Shown one piece after another: positions 3,703 through 25,345 of a DNA stretch of 28,944 bases. Origin of the DNA: a virus (lineage: Duplodnaviria; Heunggongvirae; Uroviricota; Caudoviricetes); IMG/VR virus record IMGVR_UViG_3300045988_129873, positions 1 to 28,944 of that record. One strand, given 5' to 3'. The notes below the pieces were generated by a model that was given only the letters and a program-made list of their open reading frames with translations, did not search any database and had not been told where the DNA came from. Position numbers and translations under genes: made by a program. Position 1 is the first letter of the stretch, and the number at the start of each line of letters is the position of its first letter.

Positions 3703-3974
3703 GTATTCGTATTGAAATTGGCGAACGTTATGTCGTTACCAGTGACAGCTTTCAGTTTATTCTCCACGAGAAAAAGAGAGCGGAAAGCGGTAAAAACGCC
3801 GGTCAGGAATGGCTGGCGGTGGTTGGTTATTATCCGAAATTAAGCCAGCTCGTTTCCGGCCTGATGCATCACGATATTCTGACCGGAAGCGCAAAGTCTT
3901 TTGCTGATTTAAACGCGCAGGTTGAGCAACTCAGCAAGCGTTGTTCAGAGGCTTTTGGCTCATATGGCCGTTAA
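3699..3974 (+). CDS. Hypothetical early protein (P2 orf83 position)
   Basis: ATG at 3699 with a GGAGA SD. Overlaps the A start by 11 nt. Confidence 0.55.
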   Translation: MSIRIEIGERYVVTSDSFQFILHEKKRAESGKNAGQEWLAVVGYYPKLSQLVSGLMHHDILTGSAKSFADLNAQVEQLSKRCSEAFGSYGR

Positions 3975-6240
3975 AGCCTCCGGGCGTTTTGTCCCTCCGT
4001 CAGCATTTGCTGCAGGCACCGGTAAGGCGTTTACCGGTGCTTATGCATGGAACGCGCCACGCGAGGCTGTCGGGCGCGAAAGACCCCTTACACGTGACGA
4101 GATGCGTCAGGTGCAAGGTGTTTTATCCACGATTAACCGCCTGCCTTACTTTTTGCGCTCGCTGTTTACGTCACGCTATGACTACATCCGGCGCAATAAA
4201 AGCCCGGTGCACGGGTTTTATTTCCTCACATCCACTTTTCAGCGTCGTTTATGGCCGCGCATTGAGCGTGTGAATCAGCGCCATGAAATGAACACCGACG
4301 CGTCGATGCTGTTTCTGGCTGAGCGTGACCACTATGCGCGCCTGCCGGGAATGAATGACAAGGAGCTGAAAAAGTTTGCCGCCCGTATCTCATCGCAGCT
4401 TTTCATGATGTATGAGGAACTCAGCGATGCCTGGGTGGATGCGCATGGCGAAAAAGAATCGCTGTTTACGGATGAGGCGCAGGCTCACCTCTATGGTCAT
4501 GTTGCTGGCGCTGCACGTGCTTTCAATATTTCCCCTCTCTACTGGAAAAAATACCGTAAAGGACAGATGACCACGAGGCAGGCATATTCTGCCATTGCCC
4601 GTCTGTTTAACGATGAGTGGTGGATTAGTCAGCTTAAAGGCCAGCGTATGCGCTGGCATGAGGCGTTACTGATTGCTGTCGGGGAGGTCAATAAAGACCG
4701 TTCTCCTTATGCCAGTAAACATGCCATTCGTGATGTGCGTGCACGCCGCCAGGCAAATCTGGAATTTCTTAAATCGTGTGATCTCGAAAACAGGGAAACA
4801 GGCGAGCGCATCGACCTTATCAGTAAGGTGATGGGCAGTATTTCTAATCCTGAAATTCGCCGGATGGAACTGATGAACACCATTGCCGGTATTGAGCGTT
4901 ACGCCGCCGCAGAAGGTGATGTGGGGATGTTTATCACGCTGACCGCGCCGTCAAAGTATCACCCGACACGTCAGGTTGGAAAAGGCGAAAGTAAAACCGT
5001 CCAGCTAAATCACGGCTGGAACGATGAGGCATTTAATCCAAAGGATGCGCAGCGTTATCTCTGCCGTATCTGGAGCCTGATGCGCACGGCATTCAAGGAT
5101 AATGATTTACAGGTCTACGGTTTGCGAGTCGTCGAGCCACACCACGACGGAACGCCGCACTGGCATATGATGCTTTTTTGTAATCCACGCCAGCGTAACC
5201 AGATTATCGAAATCATGCGTCGCTACGCGCTCAAAGAGGATGGCGACGAAAGAGGAGCTGCGCGAAACCGTTTTCAGGCAAAACATCTTAATCGGGGCGG
5301 TGCTGCGGGGTATATCGCGAAATACATCTCAAAAAATATCGACGGCTATGCACTGGATGGGCAGCTCGATAACGATAGCGGCAGACCGCTGAAAGATACT
5401 GCCGCGGCTGTTACCGCATGGGCGTCAACGTGGCGCATTCCGCAATTTAAAACGGTTGGCCTGCCGACAATGGGGGCTTACCGTGAACTACGCAAATTGC
5501 CTCGCGGCGTCAGCATTGCTGATGAGTTTGACGAGCGCGTCGAGGCTGCACGCGCCGCCGCAGACAGTGGTGATTTTGCGCTGTATATCAGCGCGCAGGG
5601 TGGGGCAAATGTCCCGCGCGATTGTCAGACTGTCAGGGTCGCCCGTAGTCCGTCGGATGAAGTTAACGAGTACGAGGAAGAAGTCGAGAGAGTGGTCGGC
5701 ATTTACGCGCCGCATCTCGGCGCGCGTCATATTCATATCACCAGAACGACGGACTGGCGCATTGTTCCGAAAGTGCCGGTCGTTGAGCCTTTGACTTTAA
5801 AAAGCGGCATCGCCGCGCCTCGGAGTCCTGTCAATAACTGTGGAAAGCTCACCGGTGGTGATACTTCGTTACCGGCTCCCACACCTTCTGAGCACGCCGC
5901 AGCAGTGCTTAATCTGGTTGATGACGGTGTTATCGAATGGAATGAGCCGGAGGTCGTGAAGGCGCTCAGGGGCGCATTAAAACACGGGCTGGGAACGCCA
6001 AATCGTCAGCAAAGAAACGGAAGCCCGTTAAAACCGCATGAAATTGCACCATCGGCCAGACTGACCCGGCCGGAACGATTGCAAATCACCCGTATCCGCG
6101 TTGACCTTGCTCAGAACGGTATCAGGCCGCAGCGATGGGAGCTTGAGGCGCTGGCGCGTGGGGCAACCGTAAATTATGACGGGAAAAAATTCACGTATCC
6201 GGTTGCTGATGAGTGGCCGGGGTTCTCGTTACCCATTTGA
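3964..6240 (+). CDS. A: Replication initiation endonuclease A (rolling-circle HUH nickase, P2 gpA-like)
   Basis: Trimmed to the ATG at 3964 (MAVKASGRF...); the track start is a TTG. Contains the HUH-type motif HWHMMLF and the tyrosine-pair region YIAKYISK characteristic of rolling-circle initiators. Confidence 0.92.
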   Translation: MAVKASGRFVPPSAFAAGTGKAFTGAYAWNAPREAVGRERPLTRDEMRQVQGVLSTINRLPYFLRSLFTSRYDYIRRNKSPVHGFYFLTSTFQRRLWPRIERVNQRHEMNTDASMLFLAERDHYARLPGMNDKELKKFAARISSQLFMMYEELSDAWVDAHGEKESLFTDEAQAHLYGHVAGAARAFNISPLYWKKYRKGQMTTRQAYSAIARLFNDEWWISQLKGQRMRWHEALLIAVGEVNKDRSPYASKHAIRDVRARRQANLEFLKSCDLENRETGERIDLISKVMGSISNPEIRRMELMNTIAGIERYAAAEGDVGMFITLTAPSKYHPTRQVGKGESKTVQLNHGWNDEAFNPKDAQRYLCRIWSLMRTAFKDNDLQVYGLRVVEPHHDGTPHWHMMLFCNPRQRNQIIEIMRRYALKEDGDERGAARNRFQAKHLNRGGAAGYIAKYISKNIDGYALDGQLDNDSGRPLKDTAAAVTAWASTWRIPQFKTVGLPTMGAYRELRKLPRGVSIADEFDERVEAARAAADSGDFALYISAQGGANVPRDCQTVRVARSPSDEVNEYEEEVERVVGIYAPHLGARHIHITRTTDWRIVPKVPVVEPLTLKSGIAAPRSPVNNCGKLTGGDTSLPAPTPSEHAAAVLNLVDDGVIEWNEPEVVKALRGALKHGLGTPNRQQRNGSPLKPHEIAPSARLTRPERLQITRIRVDLAQNGIRPQRWELEALARGATVNYDGKKFTYPVADEWPGFSLPI

Positions 6241-6500
6241 GTAAAAACACAACGTGATTTGATATGGCATTGAATGGCTTATGCGGAGCAGTTATGGGGC
6301 AGCAGAAGGTCAATAGCATGCTGAATTAGAAGGCTAAATGCTATTGAGTGACTAGCATGTCGGTAAGGACGGCCGTTTGATCCGGGTCATAAAAGGCCAT
6401 CCATTTAGTCTAATAAAATCATTGCGGGTAACCTTATGTCGACGCATAATTCATCTTGAGCGAAGTCTTGTCAGTCTTTCATCGTATTGATGATGGGCGC

Positions 6501-6531
6501 AAAAAAACCACCCTGGCAGGTGGTTTTTTTG
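6501..6531. terminator. Bidirectional rho-independent terminator (A-tract, 7-bp stem aaccacc/ggtggtt, 6-nt loop, T-tract)
   Basis: aaaaaaaccaccctggcaggtggttttttt read directly. Lies immediately 3' of the minus-strand small ORF and about 260 bp 3' of gene A. Confidence 0.7.
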
Positions 6532-6542
6532 TTTGAAGCATA

Positions 6543-6656
6543 TTAAAGCATAATGCTGACATTGATATTACTGACGTTTACTGACAAACCACTCGGACTA
6601 CCGTTTGGATAGCCAAAGAGGGCCAGAACGAGCATGCAGTAATAGCATTTCTTCAT
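6543..6656 (-). CDS. Candidate small hydrophobic peptide, 37 aa (MKKCYYCMLVLALFGYPNGSPSGLSVNVSNINVSIML)
   Basis: ATG at 6656 is preceded by a perfect AGGAGG SD at 4-nt spacing. The terminator at 6501..6531 follows directly after the stop. The longer 88-aa track ORF has no SD at its upstream starts. Confidence 0.4.
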   Translation of the reverse strand: MKKCYYCMLVLALFGYPNGSPSGLSVNVSNINVSIML

Positions 6657-6801
6657 ATTGCCTCCTGTAAGTAGAGGGCAACTTCCACCGGTATATGCGC
6701 TTCTTAGGTGGAATGACTTTTGAGCGAAGTCTTGCCCTGAAATAATGCTCTGTTTAAACGCAAAGTGATTTGGCATATCACCGAACAGAGAGCCGGAAAA
6801 A

Positions 6802-6849
6802 CACAACATATAGTATGTCGTTGTTTCTAGACATACATTCTATGTTGTG
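6802..6849. promoter_or_regulatory. Imperfect palindrome / hairpin (cacaacatatagtatgtc ... gacatacattctatgttgtg)
   Basis: 9-bp perfect outer arms plus inner 6-7 bp pairing around a 10-nt loop, upstream (minus-strand sense) of the small ORF. Confidence 0.4.
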
Positions 6850-7134
6850 TAACAAGGGCTTTGCATTAAACATGTTTGAGATTTTATTGATGTAGCTCAA
6901 AGTAAAAAACAGAGACTACGGTTGATAAGGTCTTGAAAGCAATGTAAATTTTTTAAAGTTGCCAATTGCTTAAAAATGTACAGTTGCGGTATGGCGTACT
7001 TAAAAAGCTATGCATGCAACAAGTGAATGTTTTTGCATGCGTTGGGGATGTCCGTTCAGGCTGCGTGCGGTCAGGACTGGTGCGGATCCATAGTATCTAT
7101 GCAACTGCATTAAAACCGCCCCGTGAAGCGGGCG

Positions 7135-7153
7135 GGCGAGGCGGGGAAAGCAC
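7135..7153. other. cos: cos site (19-nt cohesive end sequence ggcgaggcggggaaagcac)
   Basis: Matches the P2 cohesive-end sequence as I recall it. It is a GC-rich island in an otherwise AT-rich intergenic region, located between A and Q as expected for a prophage. Confidence 0.7.
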
Positions 7154-7297
7154 TGCGCGCAGCCCGTCAAGAATAAAAAACTCTCTTGCAGGTAGAAAAC
7201 ATTCTGTTAACATTTGTCTGGATGAAGTTTAAGTTAGAAATTTATGTTAATGAACTGATTGATACTTATGTTTTGTCAATAATTTAGGAATGTTAAG

Positions 7298-8434
7298 ATG
7301 ACAAGCTATGTTACATGGGCAAATAAAGGTGGAATAGGTAAATCAACATTATCTTTCCAATTGGCGTTAAAATACGCGAGATTAAACACGAATAAAAAAG
7401 TAATCATAATAGATATGAGCCCTCAGTGTGATGTCTCTAGAATGTTATTGGGGGGAGGGCATTTTAACGGTGAGCAAAAGATCTTGGATAGAATGACCTC
7501 TAATCCAAGGTTGACAATTTACCGGTATCTTGAGGCCTGTGTTAATGATGTTCCTTCTGGGAGGGGATGGCCTGATTCATTATCATACTTAATTGAACCT
7601 AATTCTTTTCGAGACGAAAACGCAGAAAAATTGCCTGATAATATTAGTATGGTCTGTGGAGATTTCGACTTAGAGAGGGTTACTCATAGTTTAGATAATT
7701 TGCCACAACCTCAACCAAGAGGCGGGCGTGTTCCGTCGGGTGCTCATTACTCAGCATATTTATTGCCACGCACTTTTCTACGGAAAATGGTGGAGGACTT
7801 TGAGCGCGAATACAGGGATGTGACAATTTTTATTGATACAGATCCATATTATTCGGTAGTAACAACACATCTGGGGCTTCTGGCTGCAGACAGGTTGATT
7901 TCGGCATACTCTCCTTCATCTCAAGCAAGCCAGTATGCAGTATATCGTAGCTTAGAGTTTCTATACGATCCTAATTATGGACTGGTGCAAGAGGTTAATA
8001 CACAGAGAGCAATATATGGTACCCCTTGGTTTGATAGTTTAAATAATATAATTACAACACCGAATATATCTGTTGCAAATCTTTATATGGTAGTAAGTAA
8101 CATGAATACGCCTCAGGCTGGAAGAGGACAACCTCCATACAGCCAACCCCAAAAACTACATAGACAATCGCAACAAGAAGTTATATCTAGAATTAATGAC
8201 ACATTAAGTAGTTTGGGGATCGCGCATGATTATGTTCATGACTATTTATGGGATCTCAAGAGATTAGGTTTGATTTGTGATTATAATGGTTTTGATTTAG
8301 CAACAATTCAATTAGGGGAAAATTATGCGGAACCAAGTGATGATGGTAATTATTATGTAAATACTACAGGTGGAACACCGATCCAATTATCATCCTATAA
8401 TGCTAGGATCGAAACTGTTACATCAAAACTATAA
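7298..8434 (+). CDS. AT-rich cargo gene: ParA/MinD-like P-loop ATPase (deviant Walker A) with uncharacterised C-terminal half, 378 aa
   Basis: Deviant Walker A KGGIGKST at residues 10-17 (7325..7348), an IIIDMSPQ motif like ParA DxDPQ, and a Walker-B-like TIFIDTDP near residue 175. AGGAA SD 7 nt upstream. Much lower GC than the backbone. Hairpin terminator directly after the stop. No ParB or parS partner seen. Confidence 0.8.
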   Translation: MTSYVTWANKGGIGKSTLSFQLALKYARLNTNKKVIIIDMSPQCDVSRMLLGGGHFNGEQKILDRMTSNPRLTIYRYLEACVNDVPSGRGWPDSLSYLIEPNSFRDENAEKLPDNISMVCGDFDLERVTHSLDNLPQPQPRGGRVPSGAHYSAYLLPRTFLRKMVEDFEREYRDVTIFIDTDPYYSVVTTHLGLLAADRLISAYSPSSQASQYAVYRSLEFLYDPNYGLVQEVNTQRAIYGTPWFDSLNNIITTPNISVANLYMVVSNMNTPQAGRGQPPYSQPQKLHRQSQQEVISRINDTLSSLGIAHDYVHDYLWDLKRLGLICDYNGFDLATIQLGENYAEPSDDGNYYVNTTGGTPIQLSSYNARIETVTSKL

Positions 8435-8440
8435 GAACTA

Positions 8441-8460
8441 GGGGAGCAAATGCTCCCTTT
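8441..8460. terminator. Hairpin gggagc-aaat-gctccc followed by a T-rich run; convergent terminator between the cargo ATPase and Q
   Basis: Read directly from the sequence; 6-bp GC-rich stem, 4-nt loop, TTT after. Confidence 0.55.
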
Positions 8461-8506
8461 CTATATATGGGTTATTAATTACCCGCTTATATAAATATTG
8501 AAGAAA

Positions 8507-9526
8507 CTATAGGGTGTATTGTCTGAATTTTATTACATTCTGACCGAGCCAGCCGTTTATTTCCCGAATCCTGTCCTGTAACGGGATAAGCTCATTGCGG
8601 ACAAAGACCTTTGCCACTTTCTCAATATCACCCAGCGACCCGACGTTCTCCGGCTTGCCACCCATCAACTGAAAGGGGATGCGGTGTGCGTCCAGCAGGT
8701 CAGCGGCGCTGGCTTTTTTGATATTAAAAAAATCATCCTTCGTTGCCACTTCACTGAGCGGGATAATTTTAATGCCGTCGGCTTTCCCTTGTGGGGCATA
8801 GAGGAACAGGTTTTTAAAGTTGTTGCGGCCTTTCGACTTCACCATGTTTTCGCGGAGCATTTCGATATCGTTGCGATCCTGCACGGCATCGGTGACGTAC
8901 ATGATGTATCCGGCATGTGCGCCGTTTTCGTAATACTTGCGGCGGAACAGCGTGGCCGACTCATTCAGCCAGGCAGAATTAAGGGCGCTCAGATATTCCG
9001 GCAGGCCGTACAGCTCCTGATTGATATCCGGCTCCAGCAGGTGAAACACGGAGCCGGGCGTGAAGGCTGTCGGCTCGTTGAAGGACGGCACCCACCAGTA
9101 AACATCCTCCTCCACGCCACGGCGGGTATATTTTGCCGGTGAGGTTTCCAGTCTGATGACCTTACCGGTGGTGCTGTAACGCTTTTCCAGAAACGCATTA
9201 CCGAACACCAGAAAATCCAGCACAAAGCGGCTGAAATCCTGCTGGGAAAGCCACGGATGCGGGATAAATGTCGAGGCCAGAATATTGCGTTTGACGTAAA
9301 TCGGTGAGCTGTGATGCACGGCAGCACGCAGGCTTTTTGCCAGACCGGTAAAGCTGACCGGTGGCTCATACCATCTGCCGTTACTGATGCACTCGACGTA
9401 ATCCAGAATGTCACGGCGGTCGAGTACCGGCACCGGCTCACCAAAGGTGAATGCCTCCATTTTCGGGGCGCTGGCGGTCATTTTTTTTGCCGCAGGTTGC
9501 GGTGTTTTCCCTTTTTTCTTGCTCAT
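8507..9526 (-). CDS. Q: Portal protein Q (P2 gpQ-like)
   Basis: 339 aa. Start ATG overlaps the P stop (ATGA). Order Q-P divergent from O-N-M-L as in P2. Confidence 0.92.
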   Translation of the reverse strand: MSKKKGKTPQPAAKKMTASAPKMEAFTFGEPVPVLDRRDILDYVECISNGRWYEPPVSFTGLAKSLRAAVHHSSPIYVKRNILASTFIPHPWLSQQDFSRFVLDFLVFGNAFLEKRYSTTGKVIRLETSPAKYTRRGVEEDVYWWVPSFNEPTAFTPGSVFHLLEPDINQELYGLPEYLSALNSAWLNESATLFRRKYYENGAHAGYIMYVTDAVQDRNDIEMLRENMVKSKGRNNFKNLFLYAPQGKADGIKIIPLSEVATKDDFFNIKKASAADLLDAHRIPFQLMGGKPENVGSLGDIEKVAKVFVRNELIPLQDRIREINGWLGQNVIKFRQYTL

Positions 9527-11298
9527 CAGTAAAACTCCAGAATGGTGGATGTCAGCGGGGTGCTTATACCGGCGGTGAGTGGCTCATTTAACAGGGCGTG
9601 CATGGTCGCCCAGGCGAGGTCGGCGTGGCTGGCTTCCTCGCTGCGGCTGGCCTCATAGGTGGCACTGCGTCCGCTGCTGGTCATGGTCTTGCGGATAGCC
9701 ATAAACGAGCTGGTGATGTCGGTGGCGCTGACGTCATATTCCAGACAGCCACGGCGGATAACGTCTTTTGCCTTGAGCACCATTGCGGTTTTCATTTCCG
9801 GCGTGTAGCGGATATCGCGCGCGGCGGGATAGAACGAGCGCACGAGCTGGAACACGCCGACACCGAGGCCGGTGGCATCAATACCGATGTATTCGACGTT
9901 ATATTTTTCGGTGAGTTTGCGGATGGATTCAGCCTGAGTGGCAAAGTCCATGCCTTTCCACTGGTGACGCTCAAGTATTCTGAATTTGCCACCGGCCACC
10001 ACCGGCGGTGCCAGCACCACGCATCCGGCGCTGTCGCCACGGTGTGACGGGTCGTAACCAATCCATACCGGGCGGGAACCGAACGGATTGGCGGCAAAGG
10101 GTGCATAGTCTTCCCATTCTTCCAGCGTGTCGACCATGCAGCGTTGCAGCTCCTCGAACGGGAACACCGACGCCTTGTCGTCAACAAATTCACACATGAA
10201 CAGGTTTTTAAAATCGTCGGCGCTGTTTTCGCGTTTGAGCTGTTCAATGTCGAACAGCGTGCAGCCACCTTTCAGGGCGTCCTCAATGGTGACAATCTGC
10301 CGCCACTGGCCGTCTGCACAGAGAAGCCCACCGGCAAGGGCGTTATGACTGACGTCGATTTCCACGCGTTCGGCGGCGCTGGCGCGTCCCCGGTTGAACA
10401 GTTCACCCGACCAGAACGGGTAGGCGTCGTGCGCCAGCGTGGACGGGGTGGAGAAATAGGTCGAGCGCAGGTGACTCTGTGAGGCCATACCTGATGCCAC
10501 CTTACGCAGTACCTGAAAATTCGGGATCCAGAAAATCTCATCGACGTACAGGTCGCCGTTATGGCTCTGCGCGGTGTTGGAGTTGGTGCCGAGAAAAATC
10601 AGTTTTGCGCCGTTATTGCCCAGGACAATCGGGTCACCGGTCAGGTCAACGTCAACCAGCCGGGCAAAGGCGATGATGTATTCGCGGAACACATACGCCT
10701 GCGTTTTACTGGCCGACAGAAAAATCTGGTTATGACCGGTTTTCAGGGCGCGCAGCAGCGCCTCGCGGGAAAAATAAAACGTCGCGCCAATCTGGCGGGA
10801 TTTCAGGATATCGCGGATGCGGTGCTCAAGCCCGGCGCGATACCAGTGCAACTGATACTCGAAAGACTGCTCAAAGAAAATCTGCTCCAGCTTTTCGATG
10901 GCCTCGTCACTGAAAAAATTCTTTTTCGGTTTGCGACGCCCGCCTTTGTTGCGGTTAGCGACGTTCGGATTAAGGTCTGCCTCGTTGCCGGTCTGACTGT
11001 AACGGTTGACCCGTGCCAGTCGTTCAATCTGGCGTCCGAGCAGGTCAATTTCCTTGAAGTCACCGCCGGTTTTCTGCGGTTTGATGATGAGCTGGGTCAG
11101 CCGCGCTTCCAGACTCATTTCGACACGGCTGATGGGGGCAACGCTGTCCCAGCCGTCGCGCTGTTTCCAGCTCTGCACCGTCGGGCGTTTCATCTGCAAC
11201 ATGGCGGCAATCTGCGGCACGGAAAACCCCTGCCAGTACAGCAGCGCCGCCTGACGACGCGGGTCGTGTAAAAGAGTGGTGTCTGTGGTGATGGTCAT
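9526..11298 (-). CDS. P: Terminase large subunit / ATPase P (P2 gpP-like, 590 aa)
   Basis: Trimmed to the ATG at 11298 (MTITTDTTLLHD...), giving 590 aa, the P2 P length. Confidence 0.92.
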   Translation of the reverse strand: MTITTDTTLLHDPRRQAALLYWQGFSVPQIAAMLQMKRPTVQSWKQRDGWDSVAPISRVEMSLEARLTQLIIKPQKTGGDFKEIDLLGRQIERLARVNRYSQTGNEADLNPNVANRNKGGRRKPKKNFFSDEAIEKLEQIFFEQSFEYQLHWYRAGLEHRIRDILKSRQIGATFYFSREALLRALKTGHNQIFLSASKTQAYVFREYIIAFARLVDVDLTGDPIVLGNNGAKLIFLGTNSNTAQSHNGDLYVDEIFWIPNFQVLRKVASGMASQSHLRSTYFSTPSTLAHDAYPFWSGELFNRGRASAAERVEIDVSHNALAGGLLCADGQWRQIVTIEDALKGGCTLFDIEQLKRENSADDFKNLFMCEFVDDKASVFPFEELQRCMVDTLEEWEDYAPFAANPFGSRPVWIGYDPSHRGDSAGCVVLAPPVVAGGKFRILERHQWKGMDFATQAESIRKLTEKYNVEYIGIDATGLGVGVFQLVRSFYPAARDIRYTPEMKTAMVLKAKDVIRRGCLEYDVSATDITSSFMAIRKTMTSSGRSATYEASRSEEASHADLAWATMHALLNEPLTAGISTPLTSTILEFY

Positions 11299-11471
11299 GA
11301 ATACCTCGCCGTGATGAATACACGGCAAGGCTACTGAGTCGCGCCCCGCGATTCGCTAAGGTGCTGTTGTGTCAGTGATAAGCCATCCGGGACTGATGGC
11401 GGAGGATGCGCATCGTCGGGAAACTGATGCCGACATGTGACTCCTCTAATCACTATTCAGGACTCCTGACA

Positions 11472-13461: not shown

Positions 13462-14205
13462 ATGACGAGTCCCGCACAGCGCCACATGATGCGGGTCTCG
13501 GCAGCGATGACCGCGCAGCGGGAAGCCGCCCCGCTGCGACATGCAACTGTCTATGAGCAGATGCTGGTTAAGCTCGCCGCAGACCAGCGCACACTGAAAG
13601 CGATTTATTCAAAAGAGCTGAAGGCCGCGAAAAAACGCGAACTGCTGCCGTTCTGGTTGCCGTGGGTGAACGGCGTGCTGGAGCAGGGCAAAGGTGCACA
13701 GGATGACATTCTGATGACGGTCATGCTGTGGCGTCTGGATACCGGCGATATTGCCGGTGCGCTGGAGATTGCCCGTTATGCCTTGAAGTACGGTCTGACC
13801 ATGCCGGGTAAACACCGCCGTACCCCGCCGTACATGTTCACCGAGGAGGTAGCGCTTGCGGCCATGCGCGCTCACGCTGCCGGTGAGTCTGTGGATACCC
13901 GCCTGCTGATGGAGACCCTTGAACTGACCGCCACGGCTGACATGCCTGATGAAGTGCGCGCAAAGCTGCACAAAATTACCGGTCTGTTTCTGCGTGACGG
14001 TGGTGATGCCGCCGGTGCGCTGGCGCACCTGCAACGTGCGACACAGCTCGACTGTCAGGCAGGCGTCAAAAAAGAGATTGAACGACTGGAGCGGGAACTG
14101 AAACCGAAGCCGGAGCCGCAGCCAAAAGCGGCCACGCGCGCCCCGCGTAAGACCCGGAGCGTGGCACCGGCAAAACGTGGACGCCCGAAAAAGAAAGCCA
14201 GTTAA
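13462..14205 (+). CDS. M: Terminase small (endonuclease) subunit M (P2 gpM-like, 247 aa)
   Basis: 247 aa. Basic, lysine-rich C-terminus. Follows N. Confidence 0.9.
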   Translation: MTSPAQRHMMRVSAAMTAQREAAPLRHATVYEQMLVKLAADQRTLKAIYSKELKAAKKRELLPFWLPWVNGVLEQGKGAQDDILMTVMLWRLDTGDIAGALEIARYALKYGLTMPGKHRRTPPYMFTEEVALAAMRAHAAGESVDTRLLMETLELTATADMPDEVRAKLHKITGLFLRDGGDAAGALAHLQRATQLDCQAGVKKEIERLERELKPKPEPQPKAATRAPRKTRSVAPAKRGRPKKKAS

Positions 14206-22417: not shown

Positions 22418-22945
22418 ATGCAGCATTTAAAAAATATTACGGCGGGTAATCCAAAAACGGTTGAACAATATCAATTGACAAAGGACTTTGATGTTGTCTG
22501 GTTTTTTTCAGAAGATGGTAAGAACTGGTACGAAGAACAAAAGTATTTTGCTGATGACACGATAAAAATAGCGTACGACAAAGATAATATCATCCACTAT
22601 GTGGAAAAGGATGTGACAGCTATCAGACCGGATGGATTAAGTGTTGTTGAAGTGGCGGATATTACTGCTAACCGACGGGCGGACATTTCAGGGAACTGGA
22701 TGTTTAAGGACGGCAAAGTGATTAAACGCATTTATACGGCAGAGGAATTACAGCAGCAGGCAGAAATTCGGAAAGCCAGACTTCTTGCAGATGCTGAATC
22801 CGTGATTTTGCCGCTGGAGCGCGCGGTCAGACTGAACATGGCAACAGATGAGGAGCGCAGCCGACTGGAAGCATGGGAACGCTACAGCGTTCTGGTCAGT
22901 CGTGTGGATCCTGCAAATCCTGAATGGCCGGAAATGCCGCAATAA
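22418..22945 (+). CDS. G: Tail fibre assembly chaperone G (175 aa)
   Basis: 175 aa. Directly downstream of H. Confidence 0.88.
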
Positions 22946-23107
22946 GTTGTATGAGCTCTGGTGTGAGCTTACATATTTATGGCACAGAGTAAAGCCTAAT
23001 CTGACAGTCCGCTCTGTGCCACGAGCGGAAGCTGTCAAGATCATGCTAGATAGCGGGAGGGGCAAGCAATAGCAGATATGCGAACATGGTGATATATAAG
23101 ATAAATA

Positions 23108-23136
23108 GCCTATCAATAATAAAATCCCTGATAGGC
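23108..23136 (-). terminator. Candidate hairpin terminator downstream of the 720-aa cargo gene (stem gcctatca/tgataggc, 13-nt loop)
   Basis: Inverted repeat read from the sequence, about 50 bp 3' of the minus-strand stop. The loop is long and the T-tract weak. Confidence 0.3.
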
Positions 23137-23182
23137 TGTGATGAATAATTAATTCAGTCATTGAACCATATACTGCGGTTTT

Positions 23183-25345
23183 TTAGTTCTTTATTTTTGC
23201 CATTTTTTTATAATGTGCAGAATAACCTGTGTGCTCAAACACTAATCTAAGCCCCTCTTTGAAATCATTATAGTTAAATTCCTTGAAGTCAAAAATGTTC
23301 TGTCCTAATGAGTGTGACTCTCTGTTTATGTAACGAATAAAGGATTGAAATCGTGGTTTTTTTAACTCTGGTTTTTGAGTGACATTGCTTAAATCTGCTT
23401 TTTGTACAAAATTGAAAAAGTATTCAATTATATTTCTCATGCAGTTAGCAATTAAGGCAGGAGGCTGTTTGTCATCATTGATTACTGACCAATAAGACTG
23501 GTAGTCATTTTGTATTTCATCGTATTTCATTAAGATAATTGAACTGCCGTTGGAGTTTTTAGAAAGCCTAAATAAATTTTGATTTTCTTTTCTTCTTTCA
23601 TGGTTTGCATCAGCGAGTTCATAGAAAAAATATAAGCTGTGAGATAAAACAAATATCTGCTCTATTTCATTAGAGTTAAAGAAATCATTTTTTATTAGTT
23701 GGCCTATATTGTAGACAAAAATATGTGATAAGCTTGATACAGGATCATCGATTATAGCTATTTTTTTGGTTTTACCCTCGGTGGCGACTCTTTTACCTCT
23801 GAATAGTTCTCTAAAATACAAAAGGCTGATAATCATTTTTTCGCCTTCACTTAATGATGAGAATACTTTAGAATTAGAGTCATTACGTACTATGCGATAA
23901 AGAGTATCCTCATATTTTGCGATGTGAAAATCTGTGATTCCGATGTCATTTAAACCTTGGTTTATGTTGAATACGGCATCATCTATATTTACTGTTGATT
24001 TCTGATATTCAATCCGTTCTGCATCTTTAGTCTTTATTTTTGCTTCTTTTTCATCTTTGGCGGTGTTTTTTCTGATTATTATAATGTTTGCACTTTCTTT
24101 TATTTCGTTGAAATTTAAAATTGTTTGATCATACTCATACCTTAAGAACTGCCAGAAAGAAATTTTTATTTTTTCTAGCTCGTGTTTTGCATTGTCTATT
24201 TTTGAGTTATGTGTGGTTATTTCATTGTTCACTAATTTCACTAATGAATTGAAGTTATCAACAGAGTTGGATATATCATTCAGCGTTACTGGGGTACTGG
24301 GGTTTGTTACCTTCTGCTTTATTAGTTCCAAGTTGCTCTCTGTATCTTTTCTTAACAGGGCGTAACAGTCGCTTAATTGAACTATATAATTTGAAGATAG
24401 TTTGCATTCTTTATAAGTATCCAGTGAAGGAATACTGTCAATCAATGAGTTATATTTGGTCTGAATGGATTTTATTTTTTTTACACTATCTTGATACGTT
24501 TCATCGAAATAGTTGCGAATATGCTGAACCAAGTTTTCAGTTATAATTTGAGATTGACAAAATGGACACTGAGAATCTCCTGTTTGTTCTAAGTATTTTA
24601 GTCCTTCATTTACCCAATCAGAGTTCTGAAGCTTACTTATAAGATATGAAACGGGACTATCTGTACTTCCCACAATTATATTCTGAAGTAATTCCACTTC
24701 ATCGAGTGATAATACGATGGTGTGAATCTCCTCTAGCATGCTGTATTTTATTGCTGTTTCGCCATCAATCGCACTTGCTTCTTCTTTTAAGTCAGAGATG
24801 TTTTTTGATGGCTTAGAATTAGGTAAAGGAATGGAGCAAAGATGGTTGAATAATGATTCTTTACTTCCCATTTTTCCTAATAAACAAAATTCAAGGACCC
24901 TGTCACCACCTGAATAGTTGGTTTTTATTTCCCATGTTTTATTTTGAGCTTTGTTTTTTGCATCAGAAACAGAGGTGTTTTGTGCTGTTATTTCTTTTTC
25001 AATTTCACGTTTTTCATCAGATAGTTTTATTATTTCTAATGTGAGGCTCTCAACCTTTTCTTTTGCTTCTTTATTTTCCTTGGACAAGCTAAATATTCCA
25101 TTTAAAGAATCCTTTGCATAAAAGTTATCCTGAATGAATTTCTGATTGTAGACAAGGATTTCATCATACTCACCTGAGTGGGAACAATTCTCATATTTTT
25201 TATTATCTATGTCATAGAAATAATTGGAGAAGGTGCTTTTACCTGTTCCATTTAAACCATAAATAATATTTACTTTTTTATCAGTATTTAACTCTGATTT
25301 TGACTTATAACTTGCAACTTTATTTAGAACTATATTGTTTATCAT
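23183..25345 (-). CDS. AT-rich cargo gene at the Z/fun position: ABC/SMC-type ATPase with coiled-coil, CxxC hook-like motif and C-terminal HEPN-like R-x6-H; candidate RloC/PrrC-like defence nuclease, 720 aa
   Basis: Walker A GLNGTGKST at residues 30-38 (25232..25258). Charged coiled-coil stretches around residues 85-135 and 370-450. SQCPFCQ at residues 257-263 (about 24557..24577). ABC-signature-like SLSEGEK at 497-503. Walker B KKIAIIDDP at 527-535 (23741..23767). H-loop-like VLSHS at about 566-570. RYINRESH at 671-678 (23312..23335). About 25-30% GC in sampled stretches. Confidence 0.8.
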   Translation of the reverse strand: MINNIVLNKVASYKSKSELNTDKKVNIIYGLNGTGKSTFSNYFYDIDNKKYENCSHSGEYDEILVYNQKFIQDNFYAKDSLNGIFSLSKENKEAKEKVESLTLEIIKLSDEKREIEKEITAQNTSVSDAKNKAQNKTWEIKTNYSGGDRVLEFCLLGKMGSKESLFNHLCSIPLPNSKPSKNISDLKEEASAIDGETAIKYSMLEEIHTIVLSLDEVELLQNIIVGSTDSPVSYLISKLQNSDWVNEGLKYLEQTGDSQCPFCQSQIITENLVQHIRNYFDETYQDSVKKIKSIQTKYNSLIDSIPSLDTYKECKLSSNYIVQLSDCYALLRKDTESNLELIKQKVTNPSTPVTLNDISNSVDNFNSLVKLVNNEITTHNSKIDNAKHELEKIKISFWQFLRYEYDQTILNFNEIKESANIIIIRKNTAKDEKEAKIKTKDAERIEYQKSTVNIDDAVFNINQGLNDIGITDFHIAKYEDTLYRIVRNDSNSKVFSSLSEGEKMIISLLYFRELFRGKRVATEGKTKKIAIIDDPVSSLSHIFVYNIGQLIKNDFFNSNEIEQIFVLSHSLYFFYELADANHERRKENQNLFRLSKNSNGSSIILMKYDEIQNDYQSYWSVINDDKQPPALIANCMRNIIEYFFNFVQKADLSNVTQKPELKKPRFQSFIRYINRESHSLGQNIFDFKEFNYNDFKEGLRLVFEHTGYSAHYKKMAKIKN

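What the first reader, a model, noticed from the sequence alone, without database searches (positions are those of the whole stretch)
7135..7153. cos site located between the two cargo elements, splitting the variable region
The 19-nt sequence ggcgaggcggggaaagcac (the P2 cohesive-end sequence as I recall it) lies 144 bp upstream of the ParA-like gene. The small-peptide module is on the A side of cos, and the ParA-like ATPase on the Q side. In the linear virion genome these would therefore be at opposite ends, with the ATPase gene the first gene at the left end, next to the packaging site.
Basis: partly seen in the sequence, partly recalled or inferred. Interest (0 to 1): 0.35.

Follow-up and report, generated by a model that had tools for sequence, protein, structure and literature searches.

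The report
P2 phage cos site between cargo
The 19-base sequence is the packaging cut site (cos) of a P2-like prophage, sitting in a known variable region with accessory genes on both sides, which is correct but ordinary.

Summary
Confirmed. Window 7135-7153 is an exact copy of the cohesive end annotated in phage P2. It lies inside a 55-bp block (7106-7160) that is 100% identical to P2 and is the core shared with satellite P4. It sits between replication gene A and portal gene Q, and the terminase genes are intact.

The ParA-like gene (7298-8434) starts 144 bp after cos. It lies in a 1,371-bp AT-rich foreign segment (7161-8531). That segment replaces the usual P2 left-end spacer and the last codons of Q.

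The layout is not new:
- Phage phiCTX carries its toxin gene in the same cos-Q slot.
- The literature already calls that slot an insertion hotspot.
- In 76 P2-like prophages from different species, 31 carry extra DNA there, including the known defence systems Olokun, Lamassu and Avs5.

All conserved cos sequence lies on the A side, plus only 7 bp on the Q side, so cargo can abut cos on the Q side.

The two sides assort independently, and all four combinations of the two cargo alleles exist. This fits exchange at cos.

The ParA-like protein is an orphan ParA/MinD-fold ATPase with no ParB partner. It also occurs in other mobile islands, and its function is unknown. Cleavage at this cos is inferred, not shown.

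The parts
3922..6240 (+). Replication gene A (gpA), the left border of the A-Q variable region
   Evidence: Pfam Phage_GPA, E 2e-123
6241..7017 (.). A-side variable segment (the 'small-peptide module'). It holds a 37-aa ORF at 6543-6656 (-) and a bidirectional terminator hairpin at 6500-6531.
   Evidence: Present at >=80% coverage in 149 of 5426 complete E. coli genomes, with no annotated gene there. The ORF is kept in diverged copies, with 8 of 11 substitutions at third codon positions.
7018..7134 (+). Conserved right-end flank of cos, the presumed terminase recognition region. Blocks: TGAAT...TTTGCAT at 7024-7038, a weak inverted repeat at 7070-7085, and ATGCAACTGCATTAAAACCGCCCCGTGAAGCGGGCG at 7099-7134.
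   Evidence: Conservation profile over 77 distinct P2-like cos regions; alignment with P2, 186 and P4
7106..7160 (+). 55-bp core cos, 100% identical to P2 and shared with satellite P4
   Evidence: BLAST 7106-7160 against P2, 55/55. The P2/P4 shared block has the same extent. The '55-bp core' of Ziermann & Calendar 1990 is as cited in PMC5694545 and PMC9594776.
7135..7153 (+). 19-nt cohesive-end sequence (the finding)
   Evidence: Exact match to P2 cosL/cosR
7154..7160 (+). TGCGCGC, the only conserved sequence on the Q side of cos
   Evidence: Nearly invariant in 76 loci; conservation falls to zero from +27
7161..8531 (+). Foreign ParA cassette. It replaces P2 left-end nt 27 to about 211, including the tQ terminator and the last ~8 codons of Q.
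   Evidence: Homology to P2, L006, L007 and L008 stops at 7160 and resumes at 8532. GC is 0.369 against 0.54-0.56 in the flanking genes. The same cassette with the same junctions is in 2 of 5426 E. coli genomes.
7298..8434 (+). ParA-like ATPase gene, 378 aa, transcribed from cos towards Q
   Evidence: Pfam AAA_31/CbiA. Deviant Walker A NKGGIGKST and a conserved 377-378-aa family. AF2 model pLDDT 91.6, matching Soj/McdA/ParA folds. No PADLOC hit.
8442..8457 (.). Hairpin GGGAGCATTTGCTCCC between the convergent ParA and Q genes, a putative terminator
   Evidence: Terminator-like site; sequence
8507..9526 (-). Portal gene Q (339 aa), with its C-terminal tail rewritten by the cassette
   Evidence: Pfam Phage_portal; junction at 8531/8532
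9526..11328 (-). Large terminase gpP
   Evidence: Pfam Terminase_5 + Terminase_6N + Terminase_6C
13462..14205 (+). Small terminase gpM
   Evidence: Pfam Phage_term_smal, E 8.5e-48

Best explanation
Window 7135-7153 is the cos cleavage site of a P2-like (Peduovirus) prophage. The phage terminase (gpM + gpP) would recognise about 140 bp (7018-7160) and make nicks staggered by 19 nt, giving the 5' cohesive ends of virion DNA. This cleavage step is inferred. The recognition sequence is one-sided. Everything conserved lies on the gene-A side of the 19-mer, and only TGCGCGC is conserved on the portal side. Foreign DNA can therefore start 8 bp after the cut site on the Q side, whereas on the A side it must stay more than about 115 bp away. 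The A-Q accessory region is thus two separate slots joined by cos. Here the A-side slot holds a small-peptide module. The Q-side slot holds a 1.37-kb AT-rich moron encoding an orphan ParA/MinD-fold ATPase, which replaced the normal left-end spacer, the tQ terminator and the last codons of Q. The shared cos core is where the two slots are re-assorted between phages, either by homologous recombination in the core or by annealing of cohesive ends from different genomes. Which of the two operates is inferred and unresolved. In virion DNA the ParA-like gene would be the first gene at the left end and the small-peptide module would lie at the right end.
For: Identity with P2:
- The 19-mer matches the annotated P2 cosL/cosR exactly.
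- The 55-bp core is 100% identical to P2 and has the same extent as the P2/P4 shared block.
- The gene order is gpA - cos - gpQ - gpP, and portal, large and small terminase, scaffold and capsid genes are intact.

Across other P2-like prophages:
- 76 of 80 P2-like loci from different species carry one cos-like site with the same flanks and orientation.
- Conservation runs from -111 to +26 and is nil from +27.

Dispensability of the Q-side flank:
- P4 is packaged by P2 terminase (established knowledge, PMC9122126). It diverges from P2 straight after +26.
- 31 of 76 loci have 380-3962 bp between cos and Q. That DNA is AT-rich, mostly transcribed towards Q, and includes Olokun, Lamassu, Avs5, AbiC-like and SIR2 genes.
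- phiCTX has cosL, then ctx with its own promoter and terminators, then Q.
- PMC5694545 calls cosL-gpQ a hotspot for foreign genes.

Independent assortment:
- The A-side module is in 149 E. coli genomes and the ParA cassette in 2, never together.
- Those two genomes carry a different A-side cargo.
- That A-side cargo also occurs without ParA.
- Homology breakpoints are at 7160 and 7091.
Against: No virion DNA ends were mapped, so cleavage here is inferred from homology. The window ends before the prophage does, so completeness of the tail and late-regulation genes is not shown. A non-coding element at +27 to +80 (GGTGGT...AGCGTCTGAGCGCGTCGTG) is conserved among the 43 canonical loci aligned with P2 and 186, and it is missing here, so some loss of packaging efficiency cannot be excluded. 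The last ~8 residues of the portal are replaced, with unknown effect. No convincing sigma-70 promoter was found upstream of the ParA-like gene. The crossover cannot be placed more precisely than 7091-7160, so homologous recombination and cohesive-end joining cannot be told apart. Repeated independent insertion of the same cassette is not formally excluded.
Confidence: 0.85

Rival explanations
1. The cos is a relic in a defective prophage. Replacing the left-end spacer, the tQ terminator and the portal C-terminus with the ParA cassette has disabled packaging or portal function, so the site is no longer used.
For: The canonical +27 to +80 element, conserved among 45 canonical loci, is absent. 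The portal C-terminal tail is altered. The cassette is rare, in 2 of 5426 E. coli genomes. The window does not show the whole prophage.
Against: P4 lacks the same element yet is packaged by P2 terminase (PMC9122126). 27 of 31 cargo-bearing loci also lack it. phiCTX is a viable phage with the same layout. All packaging ORFs are full length. The cassette is 99.6% identical with identical junctions in unrelated strains from duck, seawater and this window, on different A-side backgrounds, which suggests spread by recombination among active phages.
Confidence: 0.1
2. The ParA-like ATPase sits next to cos because it acts on cos or on the phage genome. It might partition a plasmid-form prophage or modulate packaging, rather than being unrelated cargo.
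For: It is a true ParA/MinD-fold ATPase with an intact deviant Walker A motif. It lies 144 bp from cos.
Against: There is no ParB-like partner or room for one, since only 72 bp separate it from Q. Close and distant homologues sit in elements where no P2-type cos was found: a Klebsiella integrase-primase-Ogr/Delta island, a P. aeruginosa island, Burkholderia islands beside AbiE, and non-P2 viral contigs. Other phages hold unrelated defence genes in the same slot.
Confidence: 0.04
3. The 19-mer is a chance match or belongs to a P4-like satellite rather than to this phage.
For: P4 carries the identical 19-mer.
Against: About 0.01 matches are expected by chance. The 117 bp upstream match P2-family flanks, and the site is bracketed by gpA and gpQ/gpP of one P2-like genome. 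No P4 genes are adjacent.
Confidence: 0.01

Closest known systems
cos site of coliphage P2 (also P4 and 186; Ziermann & Calendar 1990 '55-bp core')
   Same: Identical 19-nt cohesive end and identical 55-bp core. The upstream TGCAT-type blocks are the same. It has the same place in the genome, between the A-side accessory region and portal gene Q.
   Different: In P2 the 19-mer is followed by a ~167-bp non-coding spacer with terminator tQ and then Q. Here that spacer and the end of Q are replaced by a 1.37-kb gene cassette.
ctx locus of Pseudomonas phage phiCTX (cosL - ctx - Q)
   Same: A single accessory gene lies between cosL and the portal gene. It is transcribed from cos towards Q and is followed by terminators facing Q.
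   Different: phiCTX has a 21-nt cos, a different genus and host, and a pore-forming toxin as cargo. Here the cargo is a ParA/MinD-fold ATPase of unknown role.
P2 gpA-gpQ defence hotspot (old/tin 'TO region'; Rousset et al. 2022, PMC9122126; NAR 2026, PMC13586616)
   Same: This is the same locus. [quoted passage not shown]
   Different: Those catalogues treat gpA-gpQ as one locus 'adjacent to cos'. The window and the 76-locus survey show two slots separated by cos that re-assort.
cosL-gpQ insertion hotspot noted for 186-related retron prophages and Ralstonia phiRSY1 (Dodd & Egan 1996 and Nakayama 1999, as cited in PMC5694545)
   Same: Foreign DNA replaces the stretch between cos and the terminator or portal gene.
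   Different: The cargo differs (retrons, Vgr-like genes). I could not read the two primary papers, so the exact breakpoints were not compared.

Membership tests
P2/186/P4-type cos site (Peduoviridae) | 19-nt sequence equal or nearly equal to the experimentally determined cohesive end | tested here: met
   19/19 to the P2 cosL/cosR annotation; 17/19 to 186
P2/186/P4-type cos site (Peduoviridae) | 55-bp core shared by P2 and P4, plus conserved right-end flank | tested here: met
   7106-7160 is 55/55 identical to P2. The P4 alignment is and the profile over 77 loci.
P2/186/P4-type cos site (Peduoviridae) | Position between the gene-A side and portal gene Q, with cognate terminase genes present | tested here: met
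   gpA 3922-6240, Q 8507-9526, gpP 9526-11328, gpM 13462-14205
P2/186/P4-type cos site (Peduoviridae) | Staggered cleavage giving 5' 19-nt overhangs in virion DNA | not testable with these tools
   Needs virion DNA. The only support is that several deposited phage genomes start or end at the equivalent base (OQ383618, ON146439, 186).
cos-Q moron / insertion hotspot of P2-like phages | Extra gene(s) between cosL and Q that are absent from close relatives, with deviant base composition | tested here: met
   7161-8531 is absent from P2, L006, L007 and L008. GC is 0.369 against about 0.55. 31 of 76 loci have cargo in the same slot.
cos-Q moron / insertion hotspot of P2-like phages | Own transcription signals | tested here: inconclusive
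   A hairpin lies after the gene, but no sigma-70 consensus of 9/12 or better was found in 7161-7297.
ParABS partition system | ParA/MinD fold with deviant Walker A (KGGxGK[ST]) | tested here: met
   NKGGIGKST is invariant. The AF2 model matches Soj, McdA and ParA.
ParABS partition system | Adjacent ParB-type adaptor gene and centromere repeats | tested here: not met
   No ORF lies between the gene and Q, which are 72 bp apart. No repeat array is present. Homologues elsewhere also lack a ParB neighbour.
Catalogued anti-phage defence system (PADLOC-DB v2) | Significant match to a defence-protein model | tested here: not met
   0 families at E <= 0.01. The gene is listed but not tested in Rousset Table S5.

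The most novel reading that the evidence does not exclude
The conserved cos core is the joint at which two separate cargo slots (A-cos and cos-Q) are re-assorted among P2-like phages, and possibly with satellites. Hotspot catalogues that count gpA-gpQ as one locus would then conflate two independently evolving loci. The orphan 378-aa ParA/MinD-fold ATPase may also be an unrecognised single-gene factor for phage exclusion or competition between mobile elements. It moves between the cos-Q slot, satellite-like islands and other prophages.
Probability: 0.3. Interest if true: 0.45.

Novelty: already known. Interest (0 to 1): 0.18.

Why it matters
The finding mainly serves as correct annotation. It fixes the virion genome ends and shows that the ParA-like gene is cargo in a known insertion slot, not part of the packaging machinery.

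Two modest points go beyond that.
- The survey puts a number on something the recent hotspot papers do not separate. About 40% of P2-like prophages sampled across species carry cargo on the portal side of cos. The conserved cos sequence is one-sided, which explains why cargo can abut the cut site there.
- This window completes a four-combination pattern of A-side and Q-side cargo. That is the signature expected if cos is the exchange point, an idea Rousset et al. raised only as speculation.

The ParA-like ATPase is a well-conserved, widely mobile and untested candidate for a defence or competition function.

Tried and rejected
- Rfam scan of 6100-8600 at a permissive threshold: only sub-threshold chance hits on the terminator hairpin.
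- DNA search of the ParA cassette against 50,697 phage records: no match. The protein search found only distant N-terminal ParA matches in non-P2 phages.
- PADLOC on the ParA-like protein and nearby small ORFs: nothing. The overlapping ORFs 6966-7232 and 7000-7170 have no family hits and cover cos itself, so I treated them as non-genes.
- Promoter scan: no strong promoter upstream of the ParA-like gene.
- I first read as showing the A-side module in more than 2000 E. coli genomes. A dedicated search showed 149. Most hits were to the cos core only.
- cannot give the E. coli frequency of Q-side cargo, because cos-only hits include P4-like satellites.
- No P2-type cos was found in the Klebsiella element that carries the 78%-identical ParA homologue, so I call it satellite-like rather than P4-like.
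- Viral contigs with ~50%-identical homologues are not P2-like.
- Dodd & Egan 1996 and Odegrip 2006 could not be read.
- PMC2920897 added nothing specific to this slot.

Full report
**Observation**

The sequence GGCGAGGCGGGGAAAGCAC occurs once in the window, at 7135-7153 on the + strand. No second site exists within three mismatches, and shuffles of the window give 0.01 sites on average. It equals bases 1-19 of the P2 genome record AF063097, annotated there as 'cosL; left cohesive end', and the 'cosR' copy at the end of that record. Phage 186 differs at two positions. The ParA-like ORF begins at 7298, exactly 144 nt after the 19-mer.

**Genomic setting**

The window is a P2-like prophage. Gene A lies at 3922-6240 (Pfam Phage_GPA) and portal gene Q at 8507-9526 on the minus strand. 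Large terminase P is at 9526-11328 and small terminase M at 13462-14205. The scaffold and capsid genes are also full length. The order A - cos - Q - P is that of P2.

**Anatomy of the site**

- An alignment with the joined ends of P2 and 186 shows similarity for about 120 bp on the A side, through the 19-mer, and for 7 more bases (TGCGCGC).
- The window is 55/55 identical to P2 over 7106-7160. This has the same extent as the block shared by P2 and satellite P4, the '55-bp core' attributed to Ziermann & Calendar 1990 in PMC5694545 and PMC9594776.
- I fetched 80 loci encoding relatives of Q from one genome per species. Of these, 76 contain exactly one cos-like 19-mer between Q and A in the expected orientation, with near-invariant flanks.
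- A conservation profile over 77 distinct sequences was anchored on cos. Conservation is high from -35 to +26. There is a second block (TGCAT...TTTGCAT) at -111 to -96 and a weak inverted repeat at -65 to -50. From +27 onward there is no conservation.
- The recognisable cos is therefore one-sided: about 115 bp on the A side and 7 bp on the Q side.

**The Q side**

- Homology of the window to P2 and to close relatives without the ParA gene stops at 7160 and resumes at 8532.
- The 1,371 bp in between have GC 0.369, against 0.54-0.56 in the flanking genes. They replace the usual left-end spacer, the tQ terminator and about the last eight codons of Q.
- The segment holds one gene (7298-8434) and a hairpin at 8442-8457. 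I found no clear sigma-70 promoter.

**Is cargo in this slot unusual?**

No.

- In the 76 loci, the distance from the Q stop to cos is 149-228 bp in 45, 380 bp or more in 31, and 823-3962 bp in 28.
- The extra DNA is AT-rich, with GC 0.32-0.56, and is mostly transcribed towards Q.
- It encodes Olokun, Lamassu, Avs5 and several PADLOC candidate systems, along with AbiC-like, SIR2, KAP NTPase and HicB proteins.
- Phage phiCTX has cosL at 1-21, ctx at 362-1222 with its own promoter and terminators, and then Q on the other strand.
[quoted passage not shown] 1999. I could not read those two papers.
- Rousset et al. 2022 and a 2026 NAR paper define the whole gpA-gpQ interval as one defence hotspot 'adjacent to cos'.

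**Does the replacement harm cos?**

- Among the 43 canonical loci aligned with P2 and 186, a non-coding element at about +27 to +80 is fairly conserved. It is absent here and in 27 of 31 cargo-bearing loci.
- It is also absent from P4, whose sequence diverges from P2 immediately after +26. P4 is nevertheless packaged by the P2 terminase (established knowledge, stated in PMC9122126).
- The element is therefore probably dispensable for packaging. That is an inference, and reduced efficiency cannot be excluded.

**Independent assortment**

- The A-side segment 6241-7100 is present at 80% coverage or more in 149 of 5426 complete E. coli genomes. In strain WP7-S18-ESBL-09 it is followed by the canonical cos-Q spacer.
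- The ParA cassette is in two genomes only, at 99.6% identity and with the same junctions. No genome has both.
- Those two genomes carry a different A-side cargo, an ImmA/IrrE peptidase plus a hypothetical protein.
- Rousset's Table S5 lists that trio as one arrangement with the same ParA accession, WP_074400489. It also lists the peptidase pair without ParA.
- All four combinations therefore exist. Similarity to the two parental types changes within 7091-7160, which contains cos.
- This is the pattern expected from exchange at cos. Rousset et al. speculated that cohesive ends could be recombination substrates. The data cannot separate that from ordinary homologous recombination in the conserved core, or from repeated insertion.

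**The ParA-like protein**

- Pfam matches AAA_31 and CbiA in the N-terminal half, and PADLOC gives nothing.
- It belongs to a family of constant length, 377-378 aa, found from Enterobacterales to Vibrio, Pseudomonas, Burkholderia and Myxococcota. A 36-sequence alignment has 61% mean column identity, with invariant NKGGIGKST, DLSPQCD and IDTDPY motifs.
- An AlphaFold model (pLDDT 91.6) is one expanded ParA/MinD fold. The best PDB matches are the uncharacterised DIP2308 (3pg5), Soj, McdA and ParA, at 12-17% identity.
- There is no ParB partner. Homologues sit in a Klebsiella integrase-primase-Ogr/Delta island next to a DUF8370 gene. They also sit in a P. aeruginosa island with a resolvase and an integrase, in Burkholderia islands beside AbiEi/AbiEii, and in non-P2 viral contigs.
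- It behaves as mobile hotspot cargo. A defence or competition role is plausible but untested.

**Verdict**

The observation and the interpretation hold. The site is the P2-type cos, cargo lies on both sides, and in virion DNA the ParA-like gene would be the first gene at the left end. All of this fits arrangements already described for P2-like phages, so the finding is ordinary. Two points are worth keeping: the quantified two-slot view of the hotspot, and the untested ParA-like gene.

Noticed in passing
window 6543-6656 (-): An unannotated 37-aa ORF (MKKCYYCMLVLALFGYPNGSPSGLSVNVSNINVSIML) has an AGGAGG ribosome-binding site and is followed by a bidirectional terminator at 6500-6531. It is kept in 86-92% diverged copies, with 8 of 11 substitutions at third codon positions. 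It is annotated as a CDS in Salmonella phage OQ383618 but not in RefSeq E. coli genomes.
   Followed up: partly
window 6456-6470 and 6720-6734; 6245-6274 and 6756-6785: An exact 15-nt direct repeat (TTGAGCGAAGTCTTG) and a 30-nt 73%-identical repeat flank the small ORF. Their role is unknown.
   Followed up: no
window 23183-25345 (-) and 22748-23161 (-): The second P2 hotspot (Z/fun position, between tail-fibre and sheath genes) holds a 720-aa AAA_13 ATPase. It matches the PADLOC candidate PDC-S06 (E 1e-254). A 137-aa ORF with no hits lies beside it.
   Followed up: partly
window 8507-8531 (-): The last ~8 codons of portal gene Q come from the foreign cassette, giving a 339-aa portal against 344 aa in P2. 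The same altered end is in E. coli NC22.
   Followed up: partly
P2 (L001) 27-80 and 45 canonical loci: A non-coding element just inside the left end (GGTGGT...A/T-rich...AGCGTCTGAGCGCGTCGTG) is conserved among P2-like phages without Q-side cargo. It is absent from P4 and from most cargo-bearing phages. Its function is unknown.
   Followed up: partly
Rousset et al. 2022, Table S5 (PMC9122126): [quoted passage not shown] Arrangement counts there may mix two loci.
   Followed up: partly
L092 4540-7137 (Klebsiella): A 78%-identical ParA homologue is paired with a 477-aa DUF8370 protein, next to the integrase of a primase/Ogr-Delta island. Similar 'hypothetical + AAA_31' pairs appear in Rousset's P4 table. 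In some elements the system may therefore have two genes.
   Followed up: no
L009, L011, L063: Enterobacterial P2-like prophage sequence (73-97% portal identity) sits in assemblies labelled Bacillota MAG, Vagococcus sp. and Chryseobacterium sp. This probably reflects contamination or mis-binning in those assemblies.
   Followed up: no
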